Shown here: one piece after another, positions 1,372-61,934 of the stretch
Numbering within the stretch: position 1 is the first letter of the stretch
How the letters are laid out: each line of letters begins with the position of its first letter
Source: a virus
Direction: 5' to 3' (one strand)
DNA length: 64,000 bases
Virus record (IMG/VR): IMGVR_UViG_3300048578_000375
The notes under the pieces: model-generated
What the model was told of the DNA's origin: nothing
The model's database searches: none
Seen by the model: the letters and a program-made list of their open reading frames with translations, nothing else
Position numbers and translations under genes: made by a program

Positions 1372-1375
1372 CAAC

Positions 1376-3961: not shown

Positions 3962-3986
3962 CCACCAAGCCAGAACGGAGATCACC

Positions 3987-4634: not shown

Positions 4635-4684
4635 CGCTATTGCCGCCGCGCGACGGTCCTCGCGCTTTTCAAAGGAGAAAACCA

Positions 4685-5614: not shown

Positions 5615-5641
5615 AGACCTTCGGCGGAAGGATGACGGGGA

Positions 5642-5953
5642 ATGGATGCTGGTAATTGGGCAATTCTAATCGCTGCAGGCGCGCTCATGCTCAACTTCGT
5701 CGACAAGATCTTTGGTGGCGGATGGAAGCTCTCCAACCGCATCACGAAGCTGGAGACCGGCGTCGATGGAATACAGCTCGAGATCAGGAAGCTGGTCGAG
5801 GCCATAGGCAAGATCGCCGACATGCGAGGCGATATCCGTGTTCTCGACACGCGCATGCTTGCGACCGAGCAGGATGTTCGGGAACTGCGGCACGGTGAAG
5901 GGTTCGTCCGAAATCGCAACCTGACCGATCCCGGCGTCAATCGGGAATACTGA
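5642..5953 (+). CDS. Small membrane-anchored coiled-coil protein (possible holin/antiholin)
   Basis: N-terminal hydrophobic helix followed by heptad-like repeats. Confidence 0.45.
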   Translation: MDAGNWAILIAAGALMLNFVDKIFGGGWKLSNRITKLETGVDGIQLEIRKLVEAIGKIADMRGDIRVLDTRMLATEQDVRELRHGEGFVRNRNLTDPGVNREY

Positions 5954-14704: not shown

Positions 14705-14977
14705 TCAGGCGGCCTGGCGTCGTGCTTCGAGCTTGACTTTGACGTGGTAGGGAAGCTCGTCGTCCTCGCCCCAAAACAGCCAATCGATCGGGATTCTGAA
14801 TTTGGCCCGGATCAGGCAGGCGGTCTCGAACGTGAGTTCGCGAGTACCTTTCTCAAATGGATTATATGTGCTGCGTTCTATCCCCAGCTCGGTCGCAAAT
14901 GCGACCTGAGTGGAAAAGCCGAGCGCTTCTCTCAAGTGTTTCAAGCGCTTAGCGACAATTTTGGGATCATCAATCAT
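14705..14977 (-). CDS. CI-like XRE repressor (short, no S24 peptidase domain)
   Basis: 'RLKHLREALGFSTQVAFATELGIERSTYNPFEKG.R...IPIDWLFWG'; divergent from cro. Confidence 0.85.
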   Translation of the reverse strand: MIDDPKIVAKRLKHLREALGFSTQVAFATELGIERSTYNPFEKGTRELTFETACLIRAKFRIPIDWLFWGEDDELPYHVKVKLEARRQAA

Positions 14978-15012
14978 GGCGCTGATTGCACCACGAAGCG
15001 GTGCCGGTGTCG

Positions 15013-15060
15013 TCTCGCAGGTTGCGAACGCTTGACTTGTTCGCACAGTGCGAACTAATT
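15013..15060 (+). promoter_or_regulatory. PR promoter with two 17-bp operators
   Basis: GTTCGCacagtGCGAAC (15039-15055, perfect palindrome) and TCTCGCaggttGCGAAC (15013-15029); CTTGACTT at 15031. Confidence 0.85.
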
Positions 15061-15068
15061 CTTGGGTC

Positions 15069-15320
15069 ATGACGACTGATTCGCAGACATGGGGCTCGGT
15101 AATTGACGCCAGTGGCGGCACGACACGTGTCGCGGAGGGCCTTGGCGAATCCAGGTCGACGGTGAGCGGTTGGCGGACGCGCCCAGGCGGAATTCCGGGC
15201 AAGCACTGGTCCGAAATCGTGAAGCTCGCGGCCGTCGCGGGCAGGTCGGAAATCACCTTAGAGGTTCTCGCTGAACTCGCCGCGCGGCGGCAATCGGCAA
15301 ATGAAGAGGCCTGCGCATGA
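15069..15320 (+). CDS. Cro-like regulator
   Basis: 'VIDASGGTTRVAEGLGESRSTVSGWRTR..IP..HW'. Confidence 0.8.
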   Translation: MTTDSQTWGSVIDASGGTTRVAEGLGESRSTVSGWRTRPGGIPGKHWSEIVKLAAVAGRSEITLEVLAELAARRQSANEEACA

Positions 15321-15906: not shown

Positions 15907-15990
15907 GCGGAGGATCTTGCGATGACGCGCCTTCCCGTCACATTTCGTTTTGACGACGTCCCGCTGGCAGCAGCGTTCGACGAGCTCGAT

Positions 15991-16224
15991 CTACGTTTTG
16001 CCGAGGCGGGAGAGCTTGGCCGTGAAGTTGGCGTGGCTCTTCTTCGCGCGATCGAGGCCGGCGAGCAGCTTGTCGCGTTCCAGAATGATCTCCCTCCCGC
16101 AACCGAAGCCGCCGCAGATGAAACGATCGTGCGCGCGTATCCAAGCGATGGTCTTGCGCGTCTTGTATCTGCACTCAGGGCAGGAAATTTCGATGCTCTG
16201 ATCGTCGAACAGGCTTTTGGACAT
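15991..16224 (-). CDS. Small Zn-ribbon protein, antisense to the early operon
   Basis: CPEC...C-x4-C; 'LFDDQSIEISCPEC.YKTRKTIAWIR'. Confidence 0.55.
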   Translation of the reverse strand: MSKSLFDDQSIEISCPECRYKTRKTIAWIRAHDRFICGGFGCGREIILERDKLLAGLDRAKKSHANFTAKLSRLGKT

Positions 16225-16538
16225 GATTCTGGCTCCGATGGTGGTTTGGACCCTGCCATCGAAGACGCCGCGCCGGACGAGTCGCAAGGCTCGTCCGGCG
16301 CGAACGATCCATCATCCACAACCCTTATGAGACCGCCTCCGTCTGCTGGCGTTGGTTGAACTTCGCGAGGCCTGACCGTCTCGCATCTGCGTTCCCCGCG
16401 TACCGCGTTGAGTAGCCCACTCACGTTCTGGCCTGTCCGCCGTCGGAAGCATTTCCGACGCGCGAGACCTGCTGTCTCGTTTTTCGAAGTCCGGCCAAGG
16501 GAAATCCCGAACCGCCGGCAACCATGGGAGCATGATAC

Positions 16539-17432
16539 ATGAACGACCTCGCCAAGACGGAAGGTGTGAGCCGCCTTCTGACCAAGCTCGACCCGGCCTC
16601 GCCGGCCTTGCGGCTCGACGGCCCCAAAGACGTCCTCATCAAGGCCGGCACGGTGTTTGCGGGTGTACCGTTCGAGGCGGACACGCCCGTCCGCATGGCG
16701 GAGCTCGTGCCCGGCACCGACTATGTGGTGAAGCTCGAGGATCGCGTGCCGGTTGCGATGAAGGCCGCCGATCTCGGCGACCTCGTTCTCGGCGGCTTTC
16801 ATTTCGCGCCGGGCGGCAACGCGACGGCGCGGACCGGCGGCGACACGGTCGCCGCGATCAACCCCTTCTCGTTGTGGGATCAGGGCTTCCGGCCGGCCTG
16901 CGCCGATCCGTGCGGCATGGTGCTGGTGACGGCGCCGGGTCGGCAGTTCTGGTGCGACATCTACCTCACCGGCGTCGAGCATATGACGATGGGCACCAGC
17001 GCCTTCGATGCCGTGATCGCCGACGGCTATGACCGTCCGATCGATCCTGCGACCGGCAAGCCGTTCAGGCGCTTCGATTATGCCGCGGCCTGCGCCGTGA
17101 TGAAGCGCTACGGCAAGGGGCTCCTCTCGTTCGAGGAGTTCGCGGTCGCCGCCTATGGCGTGACCGAGAAGACGGCCGCGGAGCGCGATCCGCGCACGAC
17201 CGGGCTCGACGCGGCGCGCACCTCGCGCTTCGGCCTGATGCAGGCGACCGGCAACATGTGGGTCTGGGGTCACGATGGCGATCCGGATGAGCCGCGCGCC
17301 TCGCTCCTCGGCGGGTCCTGGCTGAGCGGGGGCCTCGCGGGCTCGCGCTACGCGGACCTCGACGGCTGGGCGGTCAACTCGTACGAGGGCGTCGGCGCCC
17401 GCGGCCGCAGTGATCACCTGCAGCTTGCTTAG
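16539..17432 (+). CDS. mtd: DGR target protein 1, Mtd-like C-type-lectin fold
   Basis: Motifs as recalled for BPP-1 Mtd: GGFH(F/Y)APG.NA, IN..SLWD..FRP, FW.DIYL.GV.H, GARG..DHL; carries VR1 at its 3' end. Confidence 0.9.
   Translation: MNDLAKTEGVSRLLTKLDPASPALRLDGPKDVLIKAGTVFAGVPFEADTPVRMAELVPGTDYVVKLEDRVPVAMKAADLGDLVLGGFHFAPGGNATARTGGDTVAAINPFSLWDQGFRPACADPCGMVLVTAPGRQFWCDIYLTGVEHMTMGTSAFDAVIADGYDRPIDPATGKPFRRFDYAAACAVMKRYGKGLLSFEEFAVAAYGVTEKTAAERDPRTTGLDAARTSRFGLMQATGNMWVWGHDGDPDEPRASLLGGSWLSGGLAGSRYADLDGWAVNSYEGVGARGRSDHLQLA
17291..17415 (+). repeat. DGR variable repeat VR1
   Basis: 125-bp alignment to TR with 14 mismatches, all at TR adenines. Confidence 0.97.
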
Positions 17433-17451
17433 GCGCTGCGACAGCAGCGCC
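17432..17451 (+). promoter_or_regulatory. DGR target-recognition hairpin downstream of VR1
   Basis: GGCGCTGC-GACA-GCAGCGCC (8-bp stem, GRNA loop). Confidence 0.9.
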
Positions 17452-17469: not shown

Positions 17470-17970
17470 ATGATCGTGAGGGACGACAATTCAGCGACCG
17501 AAGCTCTGGCGATCGTCGAGAAATACGAGGCCTTCGTGACCTATCTCTATCCGATCCTGCAGACCGCGCCGCGCAAGCATGGCGTCCTCCGCGACACCGT
17601 GCTGGCGGCGCTGTTCTCGCCGATCGGCGGGCTCTACCACGCCGCCAAATCGCGCCAGGTCTCGCGGCTTCACGCCGTCGATGCCGAGTTCGCGACGCTT
17701 CGCTCGTACCTGCGCTTCCTCGCAAGGGGCGACGTCCGGATCCTGACCCCGAAACAGCATGTCGCCGCGCTCGCGCTGCTCGCCGAGCCCGGCCGCATGC
17801 TGGGGGCGTGGCAGCGCAAGCTCGGCACGAGGGGCGATCAACAACGGAATCCGCATGCCGCTGGCATGCGGATGTCGCCCGAGCAGCCCGAGCGAAGCGA
17901 GGGCGCCGCGAACGGCGCAAGCAGGGTTTCGCAAGGCAGCGCCTTGCGAAAGGGAGAGGTGGGGCAATGA
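17470..17970 (+). CDS. avd: DGR accessory variability determinant
   Basis: Basic four-helix-bundle-like protein ending '...EPGRMLGAW'; lies between the target gene and TR. Confidence 0.85.
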   Translation: MIVRDDNSATEALAIVEKYEAFVTYLYPILQTAPRKHGVLRDTVLAALFSPIGGLYHAAKSRQVSRLHAVDAEFATLRSYLRFLARGDVRILTPKQHVAALALLAEPGRMLGAWQRKLGTRGDQQRNPHAAGMRMSPEQPERSEGAANGASRVSQGSALRKGEVGQ

Positions 17971-17974
17971 TGTC

Positions 17975-18099
17975 GCCGCGCGCATCGATCCTCGGCGGGT
18001 CCTGGCTGAACGAGGGCAACGCGGGCTCGCGCTACGCGAACCTCGACAACTGGGCGGACAACTCGAACGAGAACATCGGCGCCCGCGGCCGCAGTGATC
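17975..18099 (+). ncRNA. DGR template repeat (TR)
   Basis: 24 adenines including 7 in-frame AAC codons; matches VR1 and VR2 except at A; followed by a 10-bp hairpin at 18107-18130 and a ~330-nt spacer. Confidence 0.97.
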
Positions 18100-18431
18100 T
18101 CCAGCGCGATCGGCGCGCACGCGCCGATCGTCGCGGGTGCGCTCAGCGCGAAGCGAAGCTTCGTCGCAAAGCGCAAGGCCGCACGTTCGACTGGGGTTAC
18201 GGCTCCGTCGACCGGTCCAGCGCGCTTCGGTCTTCGACCGAAGTCGCGTTGGATATTTTGGGCCAGGGCGATGCCCTGTCCCAAAAATCCGGGGATCAGC
18301 CCATCTATCCTGCCTCGGCAAACACATTGCGCGGTCCGGCAGAGCGGGGCGTAGCGGCCCGGTTTTTGTCCGAAGGACAAAATACCGGCACCGTCGAGAC
18401 CCGCGGCCGGCATTCCTCGGAGGGCCTCGCC

Positions 18432-19433
18432 ATGGCGCGACGCTACCGCAACCTGATCGGCCGGATCACATCGCCCCGCAACATGGACGCCGCGCTCAGG
18501 CTCACGGCGCGCGGCAAGCGGCTGACACCGGGCTACCTCGCCTTCAAGGAGTTCTCCGCGCTGAACCTCGCCGATCTCGCGGCCGACATGGCGAGCGGGC
18601 ATTATGAGTGCGGCGCGCCGCACGAATTCTACATCCTCGATCCAAAGCGGCGGCTGATCTCGGCGCTGCCGTTCCGCGATCGCATCGCGCAGCAGGCGCT
18701 GTGCCTGGTGATCGCGCCGATCTTCGATGCGGCGATGCTGCCGCGCGCCTTTGCCTGCCGGCCCGGCAAGGGGACGCATGCCGGCGTCATCCTGCTGCAG
18801 AGCGACCTGCGCCGCGAAGCTCGCGGAGGCGAGCTGTATTTCCTCAAGACCGATTTCTCGCGCTACTTCGCCTCGATCGAGCGGCCCGTGCTGTGGCGGC
18901 TGATCGAGGCCAAAATCTCCTGCCGCGCCACGCTCGGTCTGATCGAGGCGATGGTGCCGCGCACCGGCATCGGCCTGCCGATCGGCAGCCTGACGTCGCA
19001 GATCTTCGCCAATCTCTATACCGGCGCGACGCTCGACCGGCTGCTGCAGCAGGATCTGGGCGAGCGGCTCTGGTACCGCTACATGGACCACCTCGTCGTG
19101 CTCGGCCGGTCGTCGGCGCATCTCGCGCGCGTCAAGACCGAGATCGAGGCCTATGCCGCGCGCGAGCTCGGCCTGCGCTTCTCGAAATGGCAGATCGCCA
19201 GCACGCGTCGCGGCATCAACTTCCTCGGCTATCGCATCTGGGCCAGCCACAAGCTGCTGCGCCGCGACAGCGTGATCCGCGCCCGGCGCAAGATCGCAGC
19301 GCTGCGCGAGCGTGGCGACGAGCATCGGCTGCAGCAGTTCCTCGCCGCCTGGCTGGGACATGCCGGCTGGGCCGACAGCGCGAACCTCATCAAGAGCCTT
19401 GACCTGCCGCTGCAAAGGGAGAAGCGCGGATGA
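18432..19433 (+). CDS. brt: DGR reverse transcriptase (YMDH variant)
   Basis: 'PKRRLISALPFRDRIAQ', 'KTDFSRYFASI', 'GLPIGSLTSQIFANLY', 'RYMDHLVV', 'GINFLGYRI'; the start at 18432 follows an RBS (GGAGGG). Confidence 0.93.
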   Translation: MARRYRNLIGRITSPRNMDAALRLTARGKRLTPGYLAFKEFSALNLADLAADMASGHYECGAPHEFYILDPKRRLISALPFRDRIAQQALCLVIAPIFDAAMLPRAFACRPGKGTHAGVILLQSDLRREARGGELYFLKTDFSRYFASIERPVLWRLIEAKISCRATLGLIEAMVPRTGIGLPIGSLTSQIFANLYTGATLDRLLQQDLGERLWYRYMDHLVVLGRSSAHLARVKTEIEAYAARELGLRFSKWQIASTRRGINFLGYRIWASHKLLRRDSVIRARRKIAALRERGDEHRLQQFLAAWLGHAGWADSANLIKSLDLPLQREKRG

Positions 19434-19660
19434 ATGATCCGGTCGCATGGATTGATGCCGTCACCGCCGGCCTGGTCTGGCTTCTGATCGGGTCCATCAT
19501 CTGGATGTTGATGTTCTCCGCCGGGATCGTCACGCAATCCCGCCGCGAGGCGTCAAACTTCGCGATCGTGCTGGTCTCGGCAGGCGTGATCATCGCCTGG
19601 CCGCTGGTCGTCCTGGTGTTCATAGGCGGCGTCCTGAGCGCCGCGCGGAGGGTGCGCTGA
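19430..19660 (+). CDS. Two-TM membrane protein
   Basis: Coupled to brt; hydrophobic. Confidence 0.6.
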   Translation: MNDPVAWIDAVTAGLVWLLIGSIIWMLMFSAGIVTQSRREASNFAIVLVSAGVIIAWPLVVLVFIGGVLSAARRVR

Positions 19661-21273
19661 TGGTCGGGCGCATCGAACCGGGTCCGACCCTGATGCCGGG
19701 CGAGCCGCGCTACGAGCGGCTGCGCGAGGCGTTTGCCACCATGAAGCTCGATCCCCTGCAGGACGGCGCACCGATCCATTCGCTCGCGAACCTCCTGCCG
19801 ATGTTGCCGGAGATCCAGCGTCCGGCGTTCCGCCAGTCGCTAGCCGAGCAGGGGCAGAACCATGCCGTCATCTTCCATCGCGGGGTTCTGCTCGACGGCC
19901 GCAACCGCGCCCGCGAGCTGATCGAGCTCGGCCGGCCGATTTCGACCGGGCTGTTTACCGGCACCGATAGTGACGCGCTCGATCTCGTCACCGCGGAGAA
20001 TATCGACCGTCGCCACCTCAACGAGAGCCAGCGCGCCGACTTCGCTGCGCGGGTCGCGGAGTTGAGGATCGGTGCCAACCAGCACACGCGCAAGGCTGCG
20101 CAAAATTGCGCACCCTCGCTGTTTGCCGGAAACCCTCCTGTCGTTGCCGCAGGGGGAACGGACGGAGAGGCGGCCGGGCCGGATGTACGCCCGGATGCCT
20201 CTCCGCCCCAGCCGGAGGCGCCGCCACAGCCGCTGCTGTCTCAGAGCGAGGCGGCGGAAAAGTTCAATGTCAGCCGGCGCCTGGTGCAGATGGCGACCGT
20301 CTATCAGCAGAAAGGCATCCCGGAGCTGTCGGAGAAGGTGCAGGCCGGCGAGCTCGCAGCCTCCGTCGCCGCCGAGATCGCCGCGTTGCCGATCGAGCAG
20401 CAGCGCGAGATCATCGCGCAGGCCGATCCGAAGGCCGTGAAGGAGGTCGCCAAGAAGAACCGCGCCGAGAGGGCAAAGGCCGGCCACCAGCGTCGGATCG
20501 ACAACATGCGCAAGGCCGATGCGACGCCGCTGCTCGACGGCGGCGAAAAGGCCGGTGTGTTCTATGTCGACATCCCCCGCGAGTTCGTCTCCTGGTCGGA
20601 GGAGACCGGCGAGGAAAAGTCGCCGAAGAACCACTATCGGATCGAGAAATTCCAGTTCCTGGCCGACATGCGCGACCAGATCCTGGCGCGCGCCAAGCCG
20701 AATGCCGTGATGTTCATGTGGGCCTGGGCCAATTCGCTGCAGGATCAGCTCGACCTCATGACCGAATGGGGCTTCGCCAGCATCCGCAGGCGCGACGAGG
20801 CTGGGCGGCTCCTGCGCGACGAGCGCGGGGAGGTTCTTCCGCCGGTTGGCGATGGCCGCTACCGCTCGCACCAGGTCTGGGTGAAACGCGCATCCACCGG
20901 CAACCTGCACCGTGGCACCGGCTACTGGTTCATCGACAGCCATGAGCTGCTGCTGGTCGGCGCCCGCGGTGACGTGCCGGCGCCGCTGATGGGCACGCAG
21001 GCGATGAGCGTGATCGAGGCCGTGATCGGCGCGCATTCCGAGAAGCCGAATGAGATCTTCCGCGATCAGCTCGACCATTATTTCCCGGGCGTGCGGAAGC
21101 TCGAGCTGTTCGGCCGGACCGACGACCTCGCCGCCTTCCACAAGCGCTGGCCCGATTGGGAGATCATCGGGAATGACGTCGTCGCGGCGCAGCAAGGCGC
21201 CATCGACAACGCGACTGGTGCGGCGCCTGCGCCGTCGCCAGCGCGCGACACCGACGAGGAGCAGGCGGCATGA
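19660..21273 (+). CDS. ParB-like/HTH N-terminus fused to an MT-A70-family methyltransferase domain
   Basis: 'LLDGRNRARE...EN..RRHLNESQRA'; MT-A70-like 'MFMWA', 'HQVWVK', 'GTGYWF..SHELLLVG.RG', 'HSEKP', 'LELFGR'; DPPW position reads DIPR. Confidence 0.85.
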   Translation: MVGRIEPGPTLMPGEPRYERLREAFATMKLDPLQDGAPIHSLANLLPMLPEIQRPAFRQSLAEQGQNHAVIFHRGVLLDGRNRARELIELGRPISTGLFTGTDSDALDLVTAENIDRRHLNESQRADFAARVAELRIGANQHTRKAAQNCAPSLFAGNPPVVAAGGTDGEAAGPDVRPDASPPQPEAPPQPLLSQSEAAEKFNVSRRLVQMATVYQQKGIPELSEKVQAGELAASVAAEIAALPIEQQREIIAQADPKAVKEVAKKNRAERAKAGHQRRIDNMRKADATPLLDGGEKAGVFYVDIPREFVSWSEETGEEKSPKNHYRIEKFQFLADMRDQILARAKPNAVMFMWAWANSLQDQLDLMTEWGFASIRRRDEAGRLLRDERGEVLPPVGDGRYRSHQVWVKRASTGNLHRGTGYWFIDSHELLLVGARGDVPAPLMGTQAMSVIEAVIGAHSEKPNEIFRDQLDHYFPGVRKLELFGRTDDLAAFHKRWPDWEIIGNDVVAAQQGAIDNATGAAPAPSPARDTDEEQAA

Positions 21274-21845
21274 GCTATCTCACCATGGATCACGCGGCCT
21301 GGGTACAGTGCAATCTTGAAGCTTCCAAGAAGATATTGACGAAAACGGACTTGCGGCGAGCCAAGGAAAAGAGTGAGGGCTGGGCAGCCGCGCCTGGTCA
21401 ACTCAATGAATTTCATAAGCGTGCCTTCACGATCCTCGGCATCGTCGGTGGCGGCATTTACAACGCGCCGATCTCCTGGAAGACCGTGTTCTGGCATCCT
21501 CGGATGATTTCCTGCGCATGGCGTAACGAACTCGGCACGTTTGATTTCAACGCGCTGACTGACTTCGTCTTTCTCTGCCACGCAGCCCGCATCCGAGGTT
21601 CGATCGGGCCTCGCGCCAAGTGCCACATTGAGATCCACCTCAGTGAACGCCGATCCGAAGGCCGGATGTGTGAGAAGCATCCAAGCCTTGAAGAGGCGCT
21701 GACGGCCTGGCATGCGCGATTCCCATCGGACCACACCGTCATCTATCGCAGCGAAACCGATCGGATCGCGGCGAAAGAACTTCCTGCTGCAAACAATCAG
21801 AAAACTGAATCCACCGGCTGCGAGCCGGTCAACATGGGAGCATGA
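21270..21845 (+). CDS. Hypothetical protein
   Basis: 191 aa, coupled, lower GC. Confidence 0.65.
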   Translation: MSYLTMDHAAWVQCNLEASKKILTKTDLRRAKEKSEGWAAAPGQLNEFHKRAFTILGIVGGGIYNAPISWKTVFWHPRMISCAWRNELGTFDFNALTDFVFLCHAARIRGSIGPRAKCHIEIHLSERRSEGRMCEKHPSLEEALTAWHARFPSDHTVIYRSETDRIAAKELPAANNQKTESTGCEPVNMGA

Positions 21846-21848
21846 TAC

Positions 21849-22712
21849 ATGAATCAACTGATCAAGCCGGATCCGACGCTGCCGGCATTGAAAGTCGAGG
21901 GCCTGGCCGATCTTCGGATCAGGGCGGGCATGAGCTTTGCCGGCGTCCGCTTCGATGTCGAGACGGAGGTCGAAATCTCCGGCCTCGAGCCCGGCATGGA
22001 CTACGTCGTCCTGATCCGCGACGGCGCGCCGGTGGCGGTCGAGGCCACGGGCGATGTGGCGGAGGCTCTTGGCGGCTTTCATTTCGCGCCGGGCGGCAAC
22101 GCGGAATCGATCTCCGGCGGTGACGAGGTCCCGGCGATCAACCGGTTTTCGCTATGGGATCAGAACTTCCGCCCCGCCTGCGCCGATCCGCGCGGCATGG
22201 TGCTGGTCACCGGGGCGAAGCATCCATTCTGGTGCGATATCTATCTGACCGGCGTCGATCATCTGATGGTCGGCACCAGCGCCTTCGGTGCCGTGATCGC
22301 CGATGGCGCCAACCCGCCGCTCGATCACGCCACGGGCCAGCCATTCGACGGTTTCAACTACGCGACGGCCTGCGCCGTGATGAAGCACCACGGCAAGGGA
22401 CTGCTGTCCTTCGAGGAGTTCGCGGTTGCCGCCTACGGCGTCACCGAACGATCAGCCGCAAGGAAAGACCCGCGGAAAACGAAGCTCGATGCGCCGCGCA
22501 CCTCGCGCTTCGGCCTGATGCAGGCAACCGGCAACATGTGGACCTGGGGTCACGACGGGCATCCCGATGCGCCGCGCGCCTCGGTCCTCGGCGGGTCCTG
22601 GCTGAGCGAGGGCAACGCGGGCTCGCGCTACGCGAACCTCGGCTACTGGGCGGGCTACTCGCTCGGGGTCATCGGCGCCCGCGGCCGCAGTGACCACCTG
22701 CAACTTGGATAG
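21849..22712 (+). CDS. mtd: DGR target protein 2 (remote), Mtd-like paralogue
   Basis: Full-length paralogue of 16539-17432; carries VR2. Confidence 0.9.
   Translation: MNQLIKPDPTLPALKVEGLADLRIRAGMSFAGVRFDVETEVEISGLEPGMDYVVLIRDGAPVAVEATGDVAEALGGFHFAPGGNAESISGGDEVPAINRFSLWDQNFRPACADPRGMVLVTGAKHPFWCDIYLTGVDHLMVGTSAFGAVIADGANPPLDHATGQPFDGFNYATACAVMKHHGKGLLSFEEFAVAAYGVTERSAARKDPRKTKLDAPRTSRFGLMQATGNMWTWGHDGHPDAPRASVLGGSWLSEGNAGSRYANLGYWAGYSLGVIGARGRSDHLQLG
22571..22693 (+). repeat. DGR variable repeat VR2
   Basis: 12 mismatches to TR, all at TR adenines; pattern differs from VR1. Confidence 0.97.
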
Positions 22713-22731
22713 GCGCTGCGACAGCAGCGCC
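22712..22731 (+). promoter_or_regulatory. DGR target-recognition hairpin downstream of VR2
   Basis: Identical GGCGCTGC-GACA-GCAGCGCC. Confidence 0.9.
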
Positions 22732-22760: not shown

Positions 22761-23303
22761 ATGAAACAGTCAAAGCTGATGTCGCTGGTCGAGGCTATCG
22801 TCTCCATCCTGGTCGGCTTCGGCATCTCGCTCGCGGCGCAGGCGGTCTTCCTGCCGCTGCTCGGGGTCGAGATCGCCTTTCACCAGAACCTGATCTTCGC
22901 GCTCATCATGACCGCGATCTCGATCGCGCGGCAGTTCGTGATGCGGCGCATCTTCGAGGCGCTGCATATTCGCAGACCGTTGTCGCCGTTCATGCAGGCG
23001 GTCGTCGCAGAGCGCTTCCGACAGGTGGAAATGGAAGGCTTTTCGACAGAGCATGACGACAAGCACGCGCGTGGCGTGCTGGCGTCCGCCGGCGCCGTCT
23101 ACGCACTGAATGGACGGGTGGCCCATGTCGATGATCCGGGCGGCCGTGGCGCAACATCAGTCGGACCGATGGCGTTCTGGCCCTGGGATTCCGAATGGTG
23201 GAAGCCGCAGGACCATCGCCGCAACCTCGTGAAGGCCGCAGCTCTGATTCTGGCCGAAGGCGAGAGATTCGATCGCCAACGGCTGCAGCGGAGGCCCGCA
23301 TGA
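22761..23303 (+). CDS. Two-domain hypothetical protein (membrane N-terminus plus common phage 'ER.RQ...HDD...WPW..LVKAAALI' domain)
   Basis: Hydrophobic first ~70 aa; recognisable second domain. Confidence 0.65.
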   Translation: MKQSKLMSLVEAIVSILVGFGISLAAQAVFLPLLGVEIAFHQNLIFALIMTAISIARQFVMRRIFEALHIRRPLSPFMQAVVAERFRQVEMEGFSTEHDDKHARGVLASAGAVYALNGRVAHVDDPGGRGATSVGPMAFWPWDSEWWKPQDHRRNLVKAAALILAEGERFDRQRLQRRPA

Positions 23304-24124: not shown

Positions 24125-24390
24125 GCCAGCAGATCGGTCGCCTCGCGATGCGCCACGAAGGCGCGATGTGGAATGCCTATTATGCCAGGACCGGCACGAT
24201 GGATGGTGCGATCCTGCTCGGATCGATCGCGATGCGTTTCGTCGTGAAGGATCCGGCGCGCAAGTCCGCATTCATGGACATGATGCGGGAAGCCGTCGCC
24301 GACCTGATCGAGGACGAGACGGGACAGCGGCCAACCTGGCCGGAAGATCCGCGCAGGGCACCGGAATCTGAAAGGTCCGGGCATGCGTGA
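24121..24390 (+). CDS. Hypothetical protein
   Basis: GTG start, coupled on both sides. Confidence 0.55.
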   Translation: MSQQIGRLAMRHEGAMWNAYYARTGTMDGAILLGSIAMRFVVKDPARKSAFMDMMREAVADLIEDETGQRPTWPEDPRRAPESERSGHA

Positions 24391-55909: not shown

Positions 55910-58900
55910 ATGCACGCTCCACTTCCCAAGATCACGGCCAAGCCGCTGCCGCAGCGCTCCCACGCGCGTCGTGAGCGGCGCAGCGATGCTGCTCGGCGTC
56001 CAGTGCTGCATGTCGTGATGCCCGGCATCGAGGTCGCCAGCGAGTTGCCGCGCAAAGGAGAGACGGTGACAGCCTTCCTGCGCCGCTCGGGCTGGGCGAC
56101 GCGCGATCGATGCTATGGCTGGCAGTTCCGCAAGGGCCTGCCGACCGTCCTTGAGATCAATGGCGAAGCAGTGCTGCGCAGGGAGTGGCGCCGGCGGCGC
56201 ATCGGCACGGCCGATGCCGTGCGTTTCGTCTCCTATCCGCTGGGAGGTGGCGGCAACGGCAGCACCGGCAAGCAGGTGATCGGCCTGGTCGCCCTGATTG
56301 CCGTCTCCGCCTTTGCGCTGTGGGTGCCGGGCGCGATCGGCCTCGCTGCGGGGTCGTTTGGGGCACTTGCGACGACGGCCGCGATCGGCATCGGCGGCTC
56401 GCTGCTGATCAATGCCTTGACCGCGCCGAAGGCCGGCGCCACGAACGCGCCGGATTCAACGCAGGACCAGATCTATACGGCCGCGGCGCAGGGCAATGCT
56501 GCGCGGCTCGGCCAGCCGCTGCCGGTCTGGTATGGCCGGCTGAAGCGCTATCCGGACTTCGCCGCGGCGCCCTGGAGCGAGTTCGTCGGCAACGAGCAGT
56601 ATCTCAACGTGCTCCTGTCGGTGACGATGGGCAGTCTGGAGTATGAAAACCTGTTCATCGACGATACGGTCCTGTGGGATGCAGACGACGGTATCTCCGC
56701 TTCGTATCCCGAGGCGCAGGTCGCCTTCTACGAGCCGGGCGAGGAGGTCACGCTCTTCCCGGCCAATGTGGCGACCTCGGAGGAGGTCTCCGGGCAGCAG
56801 CTTCCGGATGGCACAGGGACCACCGGCGGATTCTTCGTCGCACCATCGTCCAGGACCTCCGGCGAATGGATCGGACCGTTCGCGGCCAACCCGCCCGGCA
56901 CGCTCGCGCAGTCGCTGGCTGTCGATTTCGTGATGCCGGCAGGCGTTGCGACCTTCAACCCGGGCAACAATGGCGGCCGCGTCGGTTATGGCACGGTGCC
57001 GCTGACGGCGGAGTATTGCCCGATCAATGACGCGGGCGCGCAGATCGGCCCGTTCGCGACGCTGTTCTCCGGCACGTTCAGCTACGGCTCGACCAGCCCG
57101 ATCCGCGACAGCCGCAAGATCGACGTCGGGCCCGGCCGCTATGCGGTGCGCTTCCGCCGCGACGATGCGGCGTTCTCGAGCGAACTCGGCTCCAACCAGG
57201 TGATCTGGGCGGGCCTGCGCGCGTTCCTGAAGGGCAGCAATTCGTTTCCGGACGTCTCGACGGTGGCGATCCGCCTCAAGGCCTCGCAATCGACGCAGGG
57301 CTCCTTCAAGTTCGGGGTGCTGGGCACGCGCAAGCTGCCTGTGTGGGATGGGTCGACCTTCGTCACGCAGGCGACCCGCAATGGCGGCTGGGCATTCTAT
57401 GATGCTGCCGCCAATGCGCAATATGGCGCGGGAATCTCGCTCTCGAAGATCGATTTCAACGGCGTCGTCGCGTTCGCGGCCGGCTGCGACGGCCGGGGCG
57501 ATACGTTCGATTATTGCTTCACGTCCGCCGCGGCGGTCCCGGAAGCGCTCGAAAAGATCCTGACGCCGGCGAGGGCCCGGCACTTCTGGCTGGGCGATAC
57601 CATCTCGGTCGTACGTGACGAGTGGCGCGACGTGCCGACCATGCTGCTCACGGATCGGGAGATCGTGCGCGATTCCACGCAGGTCGGCTTTACCATGCTC
57701 GGGGAGGAGGATCCCGATGCGGTGATCATCGAATACGTCGACCAAGAGACCTGGCGGGCGGCTCAGGTGCAGTATCCGCCGAACTCGCCGACATTCACCG
57801 CGCAGAATGCCGAGGTGAAGCGCATCGACGGCATGATCATCCGGGCCAACTGCTATAAGGAAGCCGCCTTCTACTACCTGCAGTCCATCTATCGCCGCGA
57901 GACGGTCGAGATCGGAACGGAATATGAGGGGCGCGCCATCACCTTCGGCTCGGTGCTGCGGGTGCAGTCCGAGCTCCCGGAAACCTACGGCTATGGGGGC
58001 GCTGTCACCGCCGTCGACGGCAACGAGCTGACCCTATCGCCGGCACCGATCTGGGATACTGGGCCGTTCTATATCCGCCTGCGGCGGCCGAACGGGACCT
58101 CCTTCGGCCCGGTCCTGGTGACGCAAGGTGAGAGTGCCGCAATCGCGGTGCTCGATGCCGGCAGTCTTGCCGATGCCGAGGACGAGCAAGGGATTACGCT
58201 CTCCGCCGTGCTGGCGCGGGAGGATGGTGGTGAGGATCCGAGCTTCGAGCTGGGGACCGGCGTATCGTCCTCCAGGCTATGCATGGTGCTGGGCGGCCAG
58301 CCGAACGGCGACCGCTGCACGCTCAGCCTGGTTGTCGATGATGAGCGGGTGCATGCGACCGATCTCGGCGATGCTCCGCTGCTGCCGGTTGGGCAATTCC
58401 CGGCCAACGACAAGGTGCCGCTGATCGTCGGGCTCAACGCATTGTTTGATCAGGGCATCGCCGAGCCGGTGCTCGCGGCGAGTTGGTTCCCGGCCGCCGG
58501 CGCGATCTATTACATCGCCGAGGTCTCCTATGATAGCGGCGCGACTTGGCAGCAGGTCCATGAAGGGCAGGGCAATCAGTTCTCGGCCGTGGTGACGCCC
58601 GCCGCCCTGACGCTGCGGGTGCAGGCGGTTACCGCAGCGGTCCGGGGTCCCTATGCCACGGTGAGCGTGAGCGCGCCGACCATCGAGATCGCCTCTGGCA
58701 CGGTCGTGCTGAAATCCCTGATCGAGGGCATCCGCTACCAAGTCACGACGCTCGAGGATCAGCTCAACGACAAGATCGACGAGGCCAAGGCGCTGTTCGC
58801 GTCTGCCATCGCCGAGCAGGACGCGCTCAACTGGCTCAACAAGGCAAAGGTGCGCCACGACCTGTTCGCGGTCGCCGGCGATGCGCAGGCGCGCATCTCC

Positions 58901-59704
58901 ACGCTGGAGACGACGCTCGTCGGCGACGAAATTGCGTTCGCCGAATTCCAGACGGAGGTCAGCGCGACGTTCGGTCCGGCGTTCTCGAGCGTCAGCACCG
59001 TGTCCGATGCAGTCGCCACGCTGGAGGGCTACGCCGCGGCCTCCTATGCGGTGACGCTCAACGTCAACGGCTACGCGACCGGCTTCGAGCTGGTCAATGG
59101 CGGCAGCGGCGTCTCCAGCTTCACGGTGGTCGCCGACAAATTCCAGATTCAGTTGCCGGGCTACAATGGCGGTGCGCCGGTGCCGGTGTTCACCACGGGC
59201 ATGATCGACGGTGTGCCGGCGGTCGGCATCAGCGGCAACGTCTTCCTGGACGGCGAATTCCAAGCATCGAAGATCGCTGCGGGGTCGATCACCACGACGC
59301 AGCTCGCGGTCGGCGGCGTCGGTCTGGACAATCTGCTCGACGGTGCCGCCGCCAACGTCGCGGGATCGACCGGCAGCGGTTCGGCGGCCGTCGTGGTCGA
59401 CGTCAAGAACGGTCGCGCGATCGTTTGGGGATTTGCCAGCACGGGCGGCTCCGGTGGCACCATGTCTGCCGGTCTCACCGTCGACGGCTCACCGATTTCG
59501 GGCGCGGCAGGTGGATCGGCCGCGCCGGTTACCGGAGTCGGCGGTCCCGTCGACGCGCCATTCTATACCTATGGCACGCCTCCACCGATTGCAGTGATGG
59601 GATTCGTGACGGGGTTGAGCAATGGCAACCATACGTTTGCGATCTCGGCAACAGCCCCGGCCGCTCCGTCAGTCTCTATCGTCGTACTGAATCCGCGCAG
59701 GTGA
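55910..59704 (+). CDS. Host-specificity / central tail protein (lambda J-like, with gpI-like N-terminus)
   Basis: 1264 aa; N-terminal 'VSYPLGGGG..KQV..LVAL', 'G.P.PV.YG', FN3-like region, DUF1983-like 'G..Y..GF.L..G.....F.V.AD.F'. Confidence 0.85.
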   Translation: MHAPLPKITAKPLPQRSHARRERRSDAARRPVLHVVMPGIEVASELPRKGETVTAFLRRSGWATRDRCYGWQFRKGLPTVLEINGEAVLRREWRRRRIGTADAVRFVSYPLGGGGNGSTGKQVIGLVALIAVSAFALWVPGAIGLAAGSFGALATTAAIGIGGSLLINALTAPKAGATNAPDSTQDQIYTAAAQGNAARLGQPLPVWYGRLKRYPDFAAAPWSEFVGNEQYLNVLLSVTMGSLEYENLFIDDTVLWDADDGISASYPEAQVAFYEPGEEVTLFPANVATSEEVSGQQLPDGTGTTGGFFVAPSSRTSGEWIGPFAANPPGTLAQSLAVDFVMPAGVATFNPGNNGGRVGYGTVPLTAEYCPINDAGAQIGPFATLFSGTFSYGSTSPIRDSRKIDVGPGRYAVRFRRDDAAFSSELGSNQVIWAGLRAFLKGSNSFPDVSTVAIRLKASQSTQGSFKFGVLGTRKLPVWDGSTFVTQATRNGGWAFYDAAANAQYGAGISLSKIDFNGVVAFAAGCDGRGDTFDYCFTSAAAVPEALEKILTPARARHFWLGDTISVVRDEWRDVPTMLLTDREIVRDSTQVGFTMLGEEDPDAVIIEYVDQETWRAAQVQYPPNSPTFTAQNAEVKRIDGMIIRANCYKEAAFYYLQSIYRRETVEIGTEYEGRAITFGSVLRVQSELPETYGYGGAVTAVDGNELTLSPAPIWDTGPFYIRLRRPNGTSFGPVLVTQGESAAIAVLDAGSLADAEDEQGITLSAVLAREDGGEDPSFELGTGVSSSRLCMVLGGQPNGDRCTLSLVVDDERVHATDLGDAPLLPVGQFPANDKVPLIVGLNALFDQGIAEPVLAASWFPAAGAIYYIAEVSYDSGATWQQVHEGQGNQFSAVVTPAALTLRVQAVTAAVRGPYATVSVSAPTIEIASGTVVLKSLIEGIRYQVTTLEDQLNDKIDEAKALFASAIAEQDALNWLNKAKVRHDLFAVAGDAQARISTLETTLVGDEIAFAEFQTEVSATFGPAFSSVSTVSDAVATLEGYAAASYAVTLNVNGYATGFELVNGGSGVSSFTVVADKFQIQLPGYNGGAPVPVFTTGMIDGVPAVGISGNVFLDGEFQASKIAAGSITTTQLAVGGVGLDNLLDGAAANVAGSTGSGSAAVVVDVKNGRAIVWGFASTGGSGGTMSAGLTVDGSPISGAAGGSAAPVTGVGGPVDAPFYTYGTPPPIAVMGFVTGLSNGNHTFAISATAPAAPSVSIVVLNPRR

Positions 59705-59708
59705 CAAC

Positions 59709-61934
59709 ATGACCGCACTCGTCAGCTATTCCACCGGCACCGTCAGTGTTGCGGCCGGCGGCACGACCGTCACCGGCACCGGCACGATCTGGTCGCGCGC
59801 CAGCGTGCTCCCTGGCGACGTGCTGCAGATCGGCAATGTCCAGTCGATCATCTGCGATGTCGTGGACGTCGACGAACTGACGATCCCGCCGTGGGGCGGC
59901 GGTGAGCAAACGAGCGTCGCCTACAAGATCTGGCAGGTCTCGCCGCAACGCTTTGCCGGCGAGCAGGCGATGAAGAACGTCAATCTCGTGATGGCTGCGC
60001 TCGACACGACCGGATTCTTCTTCTTTGTCGGTGCTGACGAAGCCGAGCCGAATCCGTCCTATGGTGATGAGGGGCAGTATGGGTTCCAGCCGACCACCGG
60101 CAAGATGTGGGCGAAGGTCTCGGGCGCGTGGTCCTATCTCGGCATCTACAAGGCGTTTCAGTTGAGGGGCGCATACAGCGGTGCCACCACGTATTCCGTC
60201 GGCGATGTCGTCACAGAGTCCGGCTCGTCCTATGTCTGGATCAATGACACGTCCGGATCGGATCACGCGCCGCCGAACGCGACCTATTGGCAACTGCTCG
60301 CGTCGAAAGGCGATACGGGATCCGCTGGACTTGGTCCGGTTGCGGCATGGACAACCGGACATGACTACGTCGCAGGTCCGCCGGCTGATTATGTCAGCGA
60401 CGGCGGATCCTCGTATATGTGCCTTGTCGATCATACGTCGGGAACATTTGCCGCTGATCTTGCTGCGGGCAAATGGGGACTGGTCGCGCAAAAAGGTGCG
60501 GATGGGACGGCCCCGCCGGCATATGGCGGGACGAGTGCGACGTCCTTTGCGATCGGCACCGGCTCGAAAGCGTTCACCACGCAAGCCGGGCTGGCCTACT
60601 CGGACGGCGCGCGCGTCCGCGCCAGCTCGGCCGGGAGTCCCGGCAACTGGATGGAGGGCGTTGCGACCTACGCCGGCACGACGCTCACCATCGCTGTCGA
60701 CAGGACGGCGGGCAGCGGCACCTTTGCCGACTGGAATTTCAACATCGGCGGCGAGCCGGGAGACGATGGCACTTCGTCGCTCTCGGACGTCGATCGCCGG
60801 AATAGCCTGCTCGAACGAATCTATCAGGCCAAGCTGTTCGGAGGCTTCCGCCGGTTCATCAATGCCTTCGCTGATGGCTTCAAGACAAGCACCGGCATCG
60901 CGGCCGGCTCTTCGAGCAATTATGCCGTCGACACGACCAACGGATTCGTGCAGCCGACATCCGCCTATGCGGCGAACATGACGTCGCTGTTGCACTTCGA
61001 CGGCAGCAACGGTTCGACGACGATCACTGAATCCGGTATCGCGCGCACCTGGACAAATCACACCGGCGCGATCAGCACCGCGCAAAGCAAGTTCGGCGGA
61101 TCGTCCTATAATTGCGGCGCCGGCGCCGGATGGGTGGACACACCAGACAGTGCCGATTTTACGCTCGGAGGCAGCGACTTCACGGTCGATTTCTGGTTTT
61201 ACGTTTCCGGCGGATCCGGAGCGCGGCGCTTCGCTGCAGGCCAGATGTCCAGCAGTGGCACGACCGGCGCATGGTTCACGGAATTGAACGCCTCGAACGT
61301 CCTGAGCGCGACGGTCTACAAGGCCAGCGCACAAACGACGGTGACGGGAACGACCGCGATCACGACGACCGGCTGGCATCATGCCGCCTTTGTCCGAACC
61401 GGCAATAATCTGATGCTGTTTCTGGACGGCGTGCAGGAGGGCAGCACAACGGCGTTCACCGGATCCGTGGATGATTCCGCCGATGTGCTTTCGGTCGGCC
61501 GCGGTGGTACATTGGCGTCGCTACAATGGAATGGCTACATCGACGAGTTCCGGCTGAGCAAGGGCGTTGCCAGGTGGACCGCGGGCTTCACGCCGCCGGC
61601 GTCTGCCTATGCGCCGATCGTCGACGCCATGACATTGGTCACGGCCGCGCAGACGGCGGATTCGGCGGTCGGCAATGGCCGGGTCCTGATCGAGTTCGAC
61701 AATGCGGATGCGCCGACGCTCGACACCGATCTGACGGTCGAGGTGACGTGCAACGGCGGCGCCAATTGGGCGGCCGCCGCGCTGTCGTCAGTCTCGACCA
61801 ATGGCCAGGGTGGCCGGAAGATCGTCGAGACTGTCGACCAGGTGTGCACGGGCGGCACGTCATTCGCCGCGCGGATCAAGACCTTCAACGGCAAGAATGT
61901 CCCGATCCACGGGGTGAGCCTGACGGTTCACTGA
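59709..61934 (+). CDS. Tail fibre/RBP (same gene as 1376-3601)
   Basis: Identical translation. Confidence 0.8.
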   Translation: MTALVSYSTGTVSVAAGGTTVTGTGTIWSRASVLPGDVLQIGNVQSIICDVVDVDELTIPPWGGGEQTSVAYKIWQVSPQRFAGEQAMKNVNLVMAALDTTGFFFFVGADEAEPNPSYGDEGQYGFQPTTGKMWAKVSGAWSYLGIYKAFQLRGAYSGATTYSVGDVVTESGSSYVWINDTSGSDHAPPNATYWQLLASKGDTGSAGLGPVAAWTTGHDYVAGPPADYVSDGGSSYMCLVDHTSGTFAADLAAGKWGLVAQKGADGTAPPAYGGTSATSFAIGTGSKAFTTQAGLAYSDGARVRASSAGSPGNWMEGVATYAGTTLTIAVDRTAGSGTFADWNFNIGGEPGDDGTSSLSDVDRRNSLLERIYQAKLFGGFRRFINAFADGFKTSTGIAAGSSSNYAVDTTNGFVQPTSAYAANMTSLLHFDGSNGSTTITESGIARTWTNHTGAISTAQSKFGGSSYNCGAGAGWVDTPDSADFTLGGSDFTVDFWFYVSGGSGARRFAAGQMSSSGTTGAWFTELNASNVLSATVYKASAQTTVTGTTAITTTGWHHAAFVRTGNNLMLFLDGVQEGSTTAFTGSVDDSADVLSVGRGGTLASLQWNGYIDEFRLSKGVARWTAGFTPPASAYAPIVDAMTLVTAAQTADSAVGNGRVLIEFDNADAPTLDTDLTVEVTCNGGANWAAAALSSVSTNGQGGRKIVETVDQVCTGGTSFAARIKTFNGKNVPIHGVSLTVH

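What the first reader, a model, noticed from the sequence alone, without database searches (positions are those of the whole stretch)
16539..17432. Mtd-like DGR targets uncoupled from the virion: early-region location and apparently no N-terminal beta-prism
Seen: both targets (297 and 287 aa) sit downstream of cro among methyltransferase genes, far from the tail module, which has its own J-like protein and LamG fibre. They carry motifs recalled from BPP-1 Mtd but begin at the region matching Mtd's second domain, lacking the ~50-aa N-terminal segment. Inference: a hypervariable C-type-lectin binder expressed early inside the cell, for example an adaptable anti-defence or host-protein binder, rather than a tropism switch. 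Two paralogues could form mixed trimers.
Basis: partly seen in the sequence, partly recalled or inferred. Interest (0 to 1): 0.78.

Follow-up and report, generated by a model that had tools for sequence, protein, structure and literature searches.

The report
Early-operon DGR with truncated Mtd targets
A temperate phage of a soil alphaproteobacterium carries a mutagenic retroelement whose two hypervariable proteins are shortened relatives of Mtd, the classic tail-tip receptor binder. They are encoded among early methyltransferase genes far from the tail genes, as in a whole clade of related phages, so they may work off the virion, but this is unproven.

Summary
The window is a wrapped 58,333-bp temperate siphophage genome. 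It carries a BPP-1-lineage DGR: bAvd, TR, an RT 52% identical to Brt, and two VRs with adenine-specific differences and identical GACA-loop hairpins.

Both targets (297 and 287 aa) are true Mtd homologues. Residues 5-296 align to Mtd 48-380, so the N-terminal beta-prism is missing, and an in-frame stop lies one codon before each ATG. The cassette starts 1.2 kb downstream of a cro-like gene in the rightward early operon. The tail module (J-like protein, LamG fibre) lies at the other end of the prophage.

In the 64 loci whose neighbours I compared:
- The anchor-less proteins form one well-supported clade, mostly in Hyphomicrobiales. 43 of its 44 loci have no tail fibre or sheath gene within 10 kb; recurrent neighbours are early, replication or lysogeny genes (ParB/MT-A70 in 40 of 44).
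- Among 20 homologues with N-terminal extensions, at least 13 sit in tail modules.
- Because this is a single evolutionary change, the link between truncation and location is not independent evidence.

A non-virion, conflict-related role is plausible but untested. A published precedent exists (Quimbyvirus, PMC8008677), and this scan noted early-operon DGR targets before on other DNA. This copy's RT reads YMDH, so its DGR is probably frozen.

The parts
14705..15070 (-). cI-like XRE-family HTH repressor, start of the leftward lysogeny module
   Evidence: Pfam HTH_19/HTH_3 and PHROG repressor families. JGI gene call of 121 aa.
15069..15320 (+). cro-like small HTH protein, divergent from the repressor
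   Evidence: Independent gene call and translation. The HTH-like stretch was judged by eye and was not HMM-tested.
15922..16359 (+). 145-aa acidic ORF of unknown function upstream of target 1
   Evidence: Gene call. No Pfam or PHROG match.
16441..16485 (+). Two tandem hairpins, the second followed by a run of five T; terminator-like, weak
   Evidence: RNA fold, z-score -1.4. Not reported by the consensus terminator scan.
16539..17432 (+). DGR target 1: Mtd homologue with beta-sandwich and C-type-lectin domains, no N-terminal prism
17290..17421 (+). VR1
   Evidence: 87% identical to TR; 15 of 17 differences at TR adenines.
17432..17451 (+). 8-bp GC stem with GACA loop after VR1 (DGR target-recognition hairpin)
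17470..17970 (+). bAvd accessory protein
   Evidence: Pfam PF22296 E 2.6e-26. 42% identical to BPP-1 Avd.
17974..18105 (+). Template repeat (TR)
18432..19433 (+). DGR reverse transcriptase. The open frame starts at 17967 and runs through TR. Motif C reads YMDH at 19080-19091.
   Evidence: RVT_1. 52% identical to Brt. YMDH here against YMDD in 27 related loci, including BPP-1 Brt.
19430..19660 (+). 76-aa ORF with two hydrophobic stretches that look like TM helices
   Evidence: Sequence inspection only.
19660..21273 (+). ParB-like / MT-A70 DNA methyltransferase
   Evidence: A homologue lies within 10 kb in 40 of 44 short-clade loci.
21270..21845 (+). 191-aa ORF, phrog_22261, unknown function
21849..22712 (+). 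DGR target 2: paralogous anchor-less Mtd homologue
22570..22701 (+). VR2
   Evidence: 89% identical to TR; 13 of 15 differences at TR adenines.
22712..22731 (+). Hairpin after VR2, identical to the one after VR1
22761..23303 (+). DUF7220 protein with two N-terminal hydrophobic stretches that look like TM helices
   Evidence: Pfam PF23858. Sequence. A recurrent neighbour in relatives.
24383..26479 (+). C5 cytosine DNA methyltransferase
26476..30768 (+). 1430-aa helicase / N6-N4 methyltransferase
55910..59704 (+). J-like central tail fibre (context: the tail module has its own receptor-binding parts)
   Evidence: phrog_31 and phrog_469. Three Pfam matches near or below their curated cut-offs: FNIII-A_GpJ, Phage-tail_3 and Phage_Tail_Tip.
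59709..61934 (+). 741-aa fibre-like protein with CBM5/12 and LamG domains (the same gene as 1376-3601, because the window wraps)

Best explanation
Shown:
- The locus is a BPP-1-lineage diversity-generating retroelement whose only two targets are N-terminally truncated Mtd homologues. They keep the beta-sandwich and the variable C-type-lectin domain, and lack the beta-prism that is presumed to anchor Mtd to the BPP-1 tail fibre.
- The proteins belong to a large clade found mostly in temperate phages of Hyphomicrobiales.
- In this clade the cassette lives in the repressor-controlled early or lysogeny region, beside ParB/MT-A70, C5 methyltransferase, DUF7220, GapR-like, clamp and cII-like genes. 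It stays there while the tail modules are exchanged.

Inferred:
- The targets are made from early transcripts as soluble, signal-less, probably trimeric binders.
- They act off the virion inside the infected cell, in phage-host or phage-phage conflict.
- Mutagenic retrohoming (TR RNA, then A-mutagenised cDNA made by RT and bAvd, then replacement of VR1 or VR2, guided by the IMH and the hairpin) would let progeny genomes try new binding surfaces at the next infection.
- In this particular genome the RT carries YMDH, so the two VRs are probably frozen.

The ligand is unknown.
For: What the element is:
- The DGR parts and the adenine-specific TR-VR pattern are present.
- Mtd homology begins exactly at Mtd residue 48.
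- A stop codon lies one codon upstream of each ATG.

Position in the prophage:
- The order is attL-int...cI | cro-DGR-methyltransferases...Q-like antiterminator-terminase-head-tail-J-fibre-lysis-attR.

Relatives:
- In 44 short-clade loci the recurrent neighbours are early, replication or lysogeny genes: ParB/MT-A70 in 40, DUF5131 in 22, plus AAA ATPase, cII-like, ParB, beta-clamp, C5 methyltransferase, DUF7220 and integrase. There are two layouts, the rightward early operon or between the immunity region and int.
- In 20 homologues with at least 40 aa of N-terminal extension, the neighbours in at least 13 are tail genes. These include bbp9/10/11 homologues, baseplate, sheath, tape measure and tail protein. 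Two are fused to the bbp9 fibre N-terminus.
- Of five near-complete relatives, four keep the cassette at 55-87% identity tens of kb from the mapped head, packaging or tape-measure genes. In the fifth (G003) no late gene could be mapped. None of the five shares the window's LamG fibre, and three lack a detectable J protein.
- 40 of 42 short-clade cassettes show adenine-specific TR-VR differences.
- Apparent N-terminal extensions in the clade are low-GC3 artefacts, or read-through from a ParB gene.

Precedent:
- Quimbyvirus has a second DGR target among four methyltransferases (PMC8008677).
Against: - There is no direct evidence on expression time, localisation or ligand. No runs were listed.
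- The only Mtd family member I know to be characterised experimentally, BPP-1 Mtd, is a virion receptor-binding protein.
- Single Mtd trimers bind with micromolar Kd and need the 12-trimer avidity of the virion to be effective (PMC2408619). A free cytoplasmic trimer would therefore be a weak binder unless its target is multimeric or the protein is abundant.
- Early transcripts can persist to the time of assembly.
- The short clade is one side of a single branch (SH-aLRT 99). Loss of the prism and relocation therefore count as one event, not as repeated co-evolution.
- In L066 the short-target cassette lies directly upstream of a gene seen in a tail module elsewhere (phrog_17470), 3 kb from a tail-fibre gene and 5.5 kb from a sheath gene. 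L072 and L075 have weak tail-like neighbours.
Confidence: 0.45

Rival explanations
1. The short Mtd proteins are still virion-borne accessory receptor-binding proteins. They would be made early (or continuously) and dock later on a tail component through the beta-sandwich apex or an unrecognised adaptor. The early position would only reflect where the mobile DGR cassette, whose RT benefits from early expression, settled.
For: - 35-38% identity to Mtd over both retained domains.
- Cultured-phage Mtd-domain proteins sit in structural modules.
- The avidity requirement of DGR variable proteins (PMC2408619).
- L066 has the short target next to tail-fibre and sheath genes.
- The literature treats Mtd-type targets as tail proteins (PMC5758913).
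Against: - There is no anchoring domain and no conserved N-terminal peptide.
- No Mtd_N domain in the window's tail proteins. The search for it in five relatives was inconclusive, because its controls did not ring either.
- No bbp9 homologue in the window.
- Tail modules differ among relatives while the targets stay 55-66% identical.
- 43 of 44 clade loci have no tail fibre or sheath gene within 10 kb.
Confidence: 0.35
2. The targets serve the lysogen or exclude other phages. They would be expressed from the prophage independently of the lytic promoter, for example as superinfection-exclusion or host-benefit factors.
For: - In many Rhizobiaceae and Mesorhizobium relatives the cassette lies between the immunity region and int.
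- Two ORFs with membrane-like hydrophobic stretches flank the cassette (19430-19660 and DUF7220).
- Terminator-like hairpins upstream of target 1 could insulate it from the cro transcript.
Against: - The targets have no signal peptide or membrane segment.
- In the window they lie on the cro side, co-oriented with early lytic genes.
- No promoter was detected.
- There are no expression data.
Confidence: 0.1
3. In this genome the cassette is a decaying relic with no current function.
For: The RT has YMDH where 27 related loci, including BPP-1 Brt, have YMDD. The same sequence occurs in other metagenome contigs.
Against: - Both targets, avd and the RT are intact ORFs with high GC3 (0.83-0.88).
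- The hairpins are intact.
- A frozen VR still encodes a functional binder.
- The clade as a whole is conserved and diversified.
Confidence: 0.1

Closest known systems
Bordetella phage BPP-1 DGR (mtd-avd-TR-brt) and Mtd (PDB 1YU0-1YU4)
   Same: - Same gene order: target, avd, TR, RT.
- RT 52%, Avd 42% and target 35-38% identical.
- Adenine-specific TR-VR differences, AAC-rich TR, GC hairpin with a 4-nt loop after the VR.
- Beta-sandwich plus C-type-lectin fold.
   Different: - No N-terminal beta-prism (Mtd 1-47).
- No bbp9-type fibre in the genome.
- The cassette is in the early operon next to cro and methyltransferases, not at the end of the tail genes.
- Two targets, one 4.4 kb away from the cassette.
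- Siphovirus with a J-type tail tip, not a podovirus.
- RT motif YMDH.
Quimbyvirus (Bacteroides phage) second DGR target among methyltransferases, Benler et al. 2021, PMC8008677
   Same: - A phage DGR target with a C-type-lectin domain, distal to the structural module.
- It is surrounded by DNA methyltransferases and other counter-defence-type genes.
- The authors proposed a role in phage-host conflict.
   Different: - Different host phylum and phage family.
- Quimbyvirus also keeps a target next to its tail-fibre genes. Here both targets are non-structural.
- Here the targets are clear Mtd homologues that retain the beta-sandwich.
- Homology between the two target families was not tested.
nd4_tgt2 / nd12_tgt2 small DGR targets, Baykov et al. 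2023, PMC10743442
   Same: Short C-type-lectin DGR targets (234-294 aa) lacking the Mtd beta-prism. The authors noted that the prism presumably attaches Mtd to the fibre.
   Different: - Those proteins also lack the beta-sandwich and show no detectable similarity to Mtd.
- They were still proposed to take part in host binding.
Mtd-domain tail proteins of cultured siphophages (Marinomonas phage P12026 gp20, Synechococcus phage S-CBS3 gp06)
   Same: 31-35% identical over the sandwich and lectin core.
   Different: - They carry roughly 50-200-aa N-terminal extensions.
- They lie inside structural modules: after the tail fibre (P12026) or after the major head protein (S-CBS3).
Cellular DGR variable proteins proposed as pre-emptive defence sensors, Belalov et al. 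2023, PMC10053308
   Same: The concept of a DGR-diversified lectin-fold binder working in phage-host conflict rather than in adsorption.
   Different: - Those are cell-encoded and fused or linked to defence-type domains.
- Here the binder is phage-encoded, stands alone and belongs to the Mtd family.

Membership tests
Diversity-generating retroelement (BPP-1 type) | DGR-clade reverse transcriptase with an intact catalytic motif | tested here: inconclusive
   RVT_1 domain and 52% identity to Brt. Motif C reads YMDH instead of YMDD, unlike the 27 related loci compared, which include BPP-1 Brt. Activity cannot be judged from sequence.
Diversity-generating retroelement (BPP-1 type) | TR/VR pair differing almost only at TR adenines, with the VR at the 3' end of the target | tested here: met
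   VR1 15 of 17 and VR2 13 of 15 differences at TR adenines. The VRs end 10 nt before the stop codons.
Diversity-generating retroelement (BPP-1 type) | Accessory protein (Avd) and a GC-rich hairpin downstream of the VR | tested here: met
   bAvd PF22296 E 2.6e-26. Identical 8-bp stems with GACA loops after both VRs.
Mtd (major tropism determinant) protein family | Beta-sandwich second domain followed by a C-type-lectin domain carrying the VR | tested here: met
   PF21916 match. phmmer to 1yu4 E 3e-43 over query 5-296. Foldseek hits only Mtd chains. The C-terminal 60 residues of the model have low confidence.
Mtd (major tropism determinant) protein family | N-terminal beta-prism (Mtd_N), the presumed fibre-attachment domain | tested here: not met
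   The alignment starts at Mtd residue 48. An in-frame stop lies one codon before each ATG. phrog_11262 is matched only from position 65.
Mtd (major tropism determinant) protein family | Gene placed in the tail module next to a fibre gene | tested here: not met
   The gene lies 1.2 kb downstream of the cro-like gene, more than 20 kb upstream of the terminase, with the tail at the far end of the prophage.
Mtd (major tropism determinant) protein family | Virion-associated receptor-binding function | not testable with these tools
   Needs virion proteomics and adsorption assays. No sequencing runs were listed.
Non-structural phage DGR targets in methyltransferase / counter-defence neighbourhoods (Quimbyvirus type) | Lectin-fold target distal to the structural module and flanked by DNA methyltransferases | tested here: met
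   MT-A70, C5 and N6/N4 methyltransferases lie within 9 kb. The description of the family comes from PMC8008677.
Non-structural phage DGR targets in methyltransferase / counter-defence neighbourhoods (Quimbyvirus type) | Sequence homology to the Quimbyvirus target | not tested
   No Quimbyvirus sequence was fetched.

The most novel reading that the evidence does not exclude
The anchor-less Mtd clade could be a phage-encoded, DGR-driven 'adaptive counter-defence' module. In this reading, early-expressed cytoplasmic lectin-fold trimers have retroelement-rewritten surfaces that are selected, infection by infection, to bind and neutralise variable host defence proteins or competing-phage proteins. 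They would be a viral mirror of the proposed DGR-based cellular immunity, and would have been derived from a tail-tip receptor binder by loss of its anchor.
Probability: 0.3. Interest if true: 0.85.

Novelty: new variant of a known kind. Interest (0 to 1): 0.55.

Why it matters
Mtd is the textbook example of a DGR target, and by homology its relatives are assumed to be tail proteins. This report shows that a large, deep clade of genuine Mtd homologues has lost the presumed anchor domain. The clade lives in the early or lysogeny region of temperate phages of rhizobia and their relatives.

If these proteins act off the virion, DGRs in phages are not only tropism switches. They would also be engines for diversifying intracellular binders.

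The clade occurs in prophages of cultured bacteria from genera with established genetic tools: Bradyrhizobium sp. YR681, Mesorhizobium sp. B2-3-4, Rhizobium sp. BK602, Agrobacterium sp. GD03872 and Shinella. The open question left by Quimbyvirus, namely what non-structural phage DGR targets do, could therefore be tested directly.

Tried and rejected
- **Hidden N-terminus:** rejected. An in-frame stop lies one codon before each ATG. Longer ORFs in relatives are low-GC3 upstream read-through or a fused ParB gene.
- **Prism domain split off elsewhere:** tblastn with Mtd 1-50 gave only noise. No Mtd_N in the window's tail proteins. The PF18454 search of five relatives found nothing, but its controls did not ring either, so that result is inconclusive.
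- **Third VR in a tail gene:** none found.
- **Expression or diversity from public reads:** no run was listed for the 9.5-kb region or for the gene alone.
- **Plasmid or non-phage carriers of the short target:** no match in PLSDB.
- **Cultured phages with the short form:** none in INPHARED. The 14 hits are BPP-1-like, Marinomonas, Synechococcus, engineered T7 and Chromohalobacter phages.
- **Promoter and terminator scan:** no sigma-70-like promoter, and terminators at chance level. Hairpins upstream of target 1 are not significant.
- **Statistical co-evolution of truncation and location:** not claimable, because the tree shows a single change.
- **Literature:** I found no description of this clade. 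The cryo-EM paper on BPP-1 could not be opened.
- **DUF5131 as a cassette partner:** it is absent from the window.

Full report
**What the window is**

The 64-kb window is a 58,333-bp genome wrapped on itself; the first 5,667 bases recur exactly at the end. No whole genome is held for it.

PHROG and Pfam scans give a lambdoid temperate siphophage:
- The integrase (10960-12336, -) and a cI-like HTH repressor (14705-15070, -) head a leftward module.
- A cro-like ORF (15069-15320, +; judged by eye) opens a long rightward operon. It contains the DGR, three DNA methyltransferases, helicases, a TIGR-Tas-like gene noted by others, and a Q-like antiterminator (38956-39636).
- The late operon follows: TerS (40256), TerL, portal, protease, capsid, connector proteins, major tail protein, tape measure (52222-54429), minor tail proteins and a J-like protein (55910-59704).
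- After J come a 741-aa CBM5/12 + LamG fibre (59709-61934, = 1376-3601) and the endolysin.

A metagenome contig carrying the identical target shows the integrase abutting host genes (MerR, HU, FabH, PlsX). The integrated order is therefore attL-int...cI | cro-DGR...tail-lysis-attR.

**The DGR**

- Target 1 is 16539-17432. Then come bAvd (17470-17970), TR (17974-18105) and the RT (homology to Brt from 18432, ending at 19433).
- Three unrelated genes follow, then target 2 (21849-22712).
- TR differs from VR1 at 17 positions and from VR2 at 15. Of these, 15 and 13 are TR adenines; the rest lie at the IMH border.
- 24 of 25 TR adenines sit in codon positions 1 or 2, and there are seven AAC codons.
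- Both VRs are followed by the same 8-bp GC stem with a GACA loop.
- The RT is 52%, Avd 42% and the targets 35% identical to their BPP-1 counterparts.
- No further VR exists in the window.
- A note from this scan (e1-5328220) said the RT motif reads YMDH. I confirmed it: all 27 related loci compared, including BPP-1 Brt, have YMDD. This copy is probably catalytically impaired and its VRs frozen, although they were clearly diversified earlier.

**The targets are truncated Mtd**

- phmmer against PDB sequences aligns residues 5-296 to Mtd 48-380 (E 3e-43).
- tblastn places query residue 4 at Mtd residue 47.
- phrog_11262 is matched from profile position 65.
- An AF2 model has a confident beta-sandwich (pLDDT about 90 for residues 11-95) and a poorly modelled variable C-terminus. 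Foldseek finds only Mtd chains.
- An in-frame TGA lies one codon before each start codon.
- The roughly 47-residue beta-prism, which the literature presumes attaches Mtd to the fibre (PMC10743442), is therefore truly absent.
- The window has no homologue of the BPP-1 fibre Bbp9. Its tail proteins have no Mtd_N domain.

**How general is this?**

The word-indexed search found more than 800 proteins, almost all about 300 aa. They come from Bradyrhizobium, Afipia, Rhizomicrobium and soil metagenomes. A profile search of 1.84 billion representatives found 902 relatives; below the short clade, most carry 100-700 residues N-terminal to the Mtd module.

I fetched 33 viral and 60 genomic loci. Apparent N-terminal extensions within the close family are low-GC3, arginine-rich upstream read-through with a start codon at the expected place, or fusion to an upstream ParB gene. 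More distant homologues, mostly from Beta- and Gammaproteobacteria with some Alphaproteobacteria, have real extensions of at least 40 aa.

I clustered all called neighbours and annotated representatives. The contrast is clean.

Short-clade loci (44):
- ParB/MT-A70 methyltransferase occurs in 40 loci, at a median 4 kb from the cassette.
- DUF5131 occurs in 22 loci.
- GapR-like protein, AAA ATPase, cII-like activator, ParB, beta-clamp, C5 methyltransferase, DUF7220 and integrase also recur.
- Large unclustered ORFs turned out to be primases, replication initiators, terminases and integrases.
- Two layouts occur. In one, the cassette is in the rightward early operon, as in the window. In the other, common in Rhizobiaceae and Mesorhizobium, it lies between the immunity region and int.

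Loci with N-terminal extensions (20):
- At least 13 sit in tail modules.
- Some are BPP-1-like (bbp9/10/11 homologues). In two Thiobacillus loci the Mtd module is fused to the Bbp9 N-terminus.
- Others are P2-like (baseplate, then the target, then the sheath), or lie beside tape-measure or tail proteins.

Cultured siphophages with Mtd-domain proteins also have them, with N-terminal extensions, inside structural modules.

Of five near-complete relatives, four keep the cassette at 55-87% identity tens of kb from the head, packaging or tape-measure genes I could map; in the fifth (G003) no late gene was mapped. None of the five has the window's LamG fibre, and three lack a detectable J protein. 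40 of 42 short-clade cassettes show adenine-specific TR-VR differences, and most have two or three VRs.

**Limits**

- A maximum-likelihood tree puts all 90 short rows on one side of a branch (SH-aLRT 99). Loss of the prism and relocation therefore amount to one evolutionary change, and the correlation is not independent evidence.
- What the tree does show is long persistence of both traits, down to about 47% identity, across several families of Hyphomicrobiales. It also shows old, retained tandem paralogues.
- One locus (L066) is an exception. The short-target cassette is followed by phrog_17470, a tail-fibre protein, a sheath and a tube gene. Two loci (L072, L075) have weak tail-like neighbours.
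- My annotation of neighbours was sampled, not exhaustive.

**Function**

Nothing here measures expression, localisation or binding; no sequencing run was listed.

For an off-virion role:
- the persistent early or lysogeny position;
- the lack of any anchor or conserved N-terminal peptide;
- retention across swapped tail modules;
- the absence of a signal peptide;
- a published precedent, the second DGR target of Quimbyvirus, which sits among four methyltransferases and was proposed to act in phage-host conflict (PMC8008677).

This scan has also repeatedly noted early-operon DGR targets in unrelated phages.

Against it:
- homology to a proven receptor binder;
- the micromolar affinity of single Mtd trimers, which need virion multivalency (PMC2408619);
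- the fact that early transcripts can supply late assembly;
- the L066 exception.

I commit to the off-virion reading as slightly more likely (0.45) than a virion-borne accessory receptor binder (0.35). The ligand is unknown.

**Novelty**

The DGR itself is an ordinary member of the BPP-1 lineage. Non-structural phage DGR targets next to methyltransferases are published.

New as far as I could find:
- genuine Mtd homologues form a large anchor-less clade confined to early or lysogeny regions;
- all targets of these elements are of that kind;
- the clade occurs in prophages of cultured bacteria from genera with established genetic tools.

I therefore rate it a new variant of a known kind, of moderate interest.

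Noticed in passing
window 19080-19091: The DGR RT motif C reads YMDH. All 27 related loci compared, including BPP-1 Brt, read YMDD. The same sequence occurs in two other metagenome contigs, so it is probably not a sequencing error.
   Followed up: yes
L066:9962-20571: An exception in the short clade (Bradyrhizobiaceae MAG): ParB, ParB/MT-A70, short target, Avd and RT are followed directly by phrog_17470, a tail-collar-fibre-like protein, a sheath and a tube gene. phrog_17470 also lies just upstream of the long target in the P2-like tail module of L112.
   Followed up: partly
L098:9047-10984 and L100:9041-10975: In two Thiobacillus loci the Mtd module is fused to about 146 residues homologous to the N-terminus of the BPP-1 tail fibre Bbp9, giving 645-aa proteins.
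   Followed up: partly
window 16514-16538 versus 21824-21848: The duplication that made the two targets includes about 25 nt upstream, which in the target-2 copy are the last codons and stop of the preceding gene (21270-21845). Target 1 therefore carries a remnant of that gene's 3' end, with the same stop, a single TAC codon and then the ATG.
   Followed up: partly
window 16441-16485: Two tandem hairpins lie about 55 nt upstream of target 1, the second followed by TTTTT. They look like a terminator but are not statistically significant.
   Followed up: partly
window 19430-19660 and 22761-23303: Two small proteins, each with two hydrophobic stretches that look like TM helices (a 76-aa ORF after the RT, and DUF7220 after target 2), flank the cassette. 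DUF7220 is a recurrent neighbour in relatives.
   Followed up: no
short-clade loci, e.g. L075:14215-15354, L003:12869-14035: A DUF5131 (phage Gp37/Gp68, phrog_2045) gene lies within 10 kb in 22 of 44 short-clade loci, and within 1.5 kb downstream of the cassette in 12. It is absent from the window.
   Followed up: partly
L035:1-4450: The same phage is integrated next to host MerR, HU/IHF-like, FabH and PlsX genes. This puts attP just downstream of int, at about window 10.6-10.96 kb.
   Followed up: partly
P0124 (391 aa, metagenome protein): A short-clade target whose VR region is truncated and fused in frame to an XRE-type HTH domain. This fits a position next to immunity genes.
   Followed up: no
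window 1-5667 = 58334-64000: The window wraps around a 58,333-bp genome, so genes at 16-5614 are repeated at the end.
   Followed up: yes
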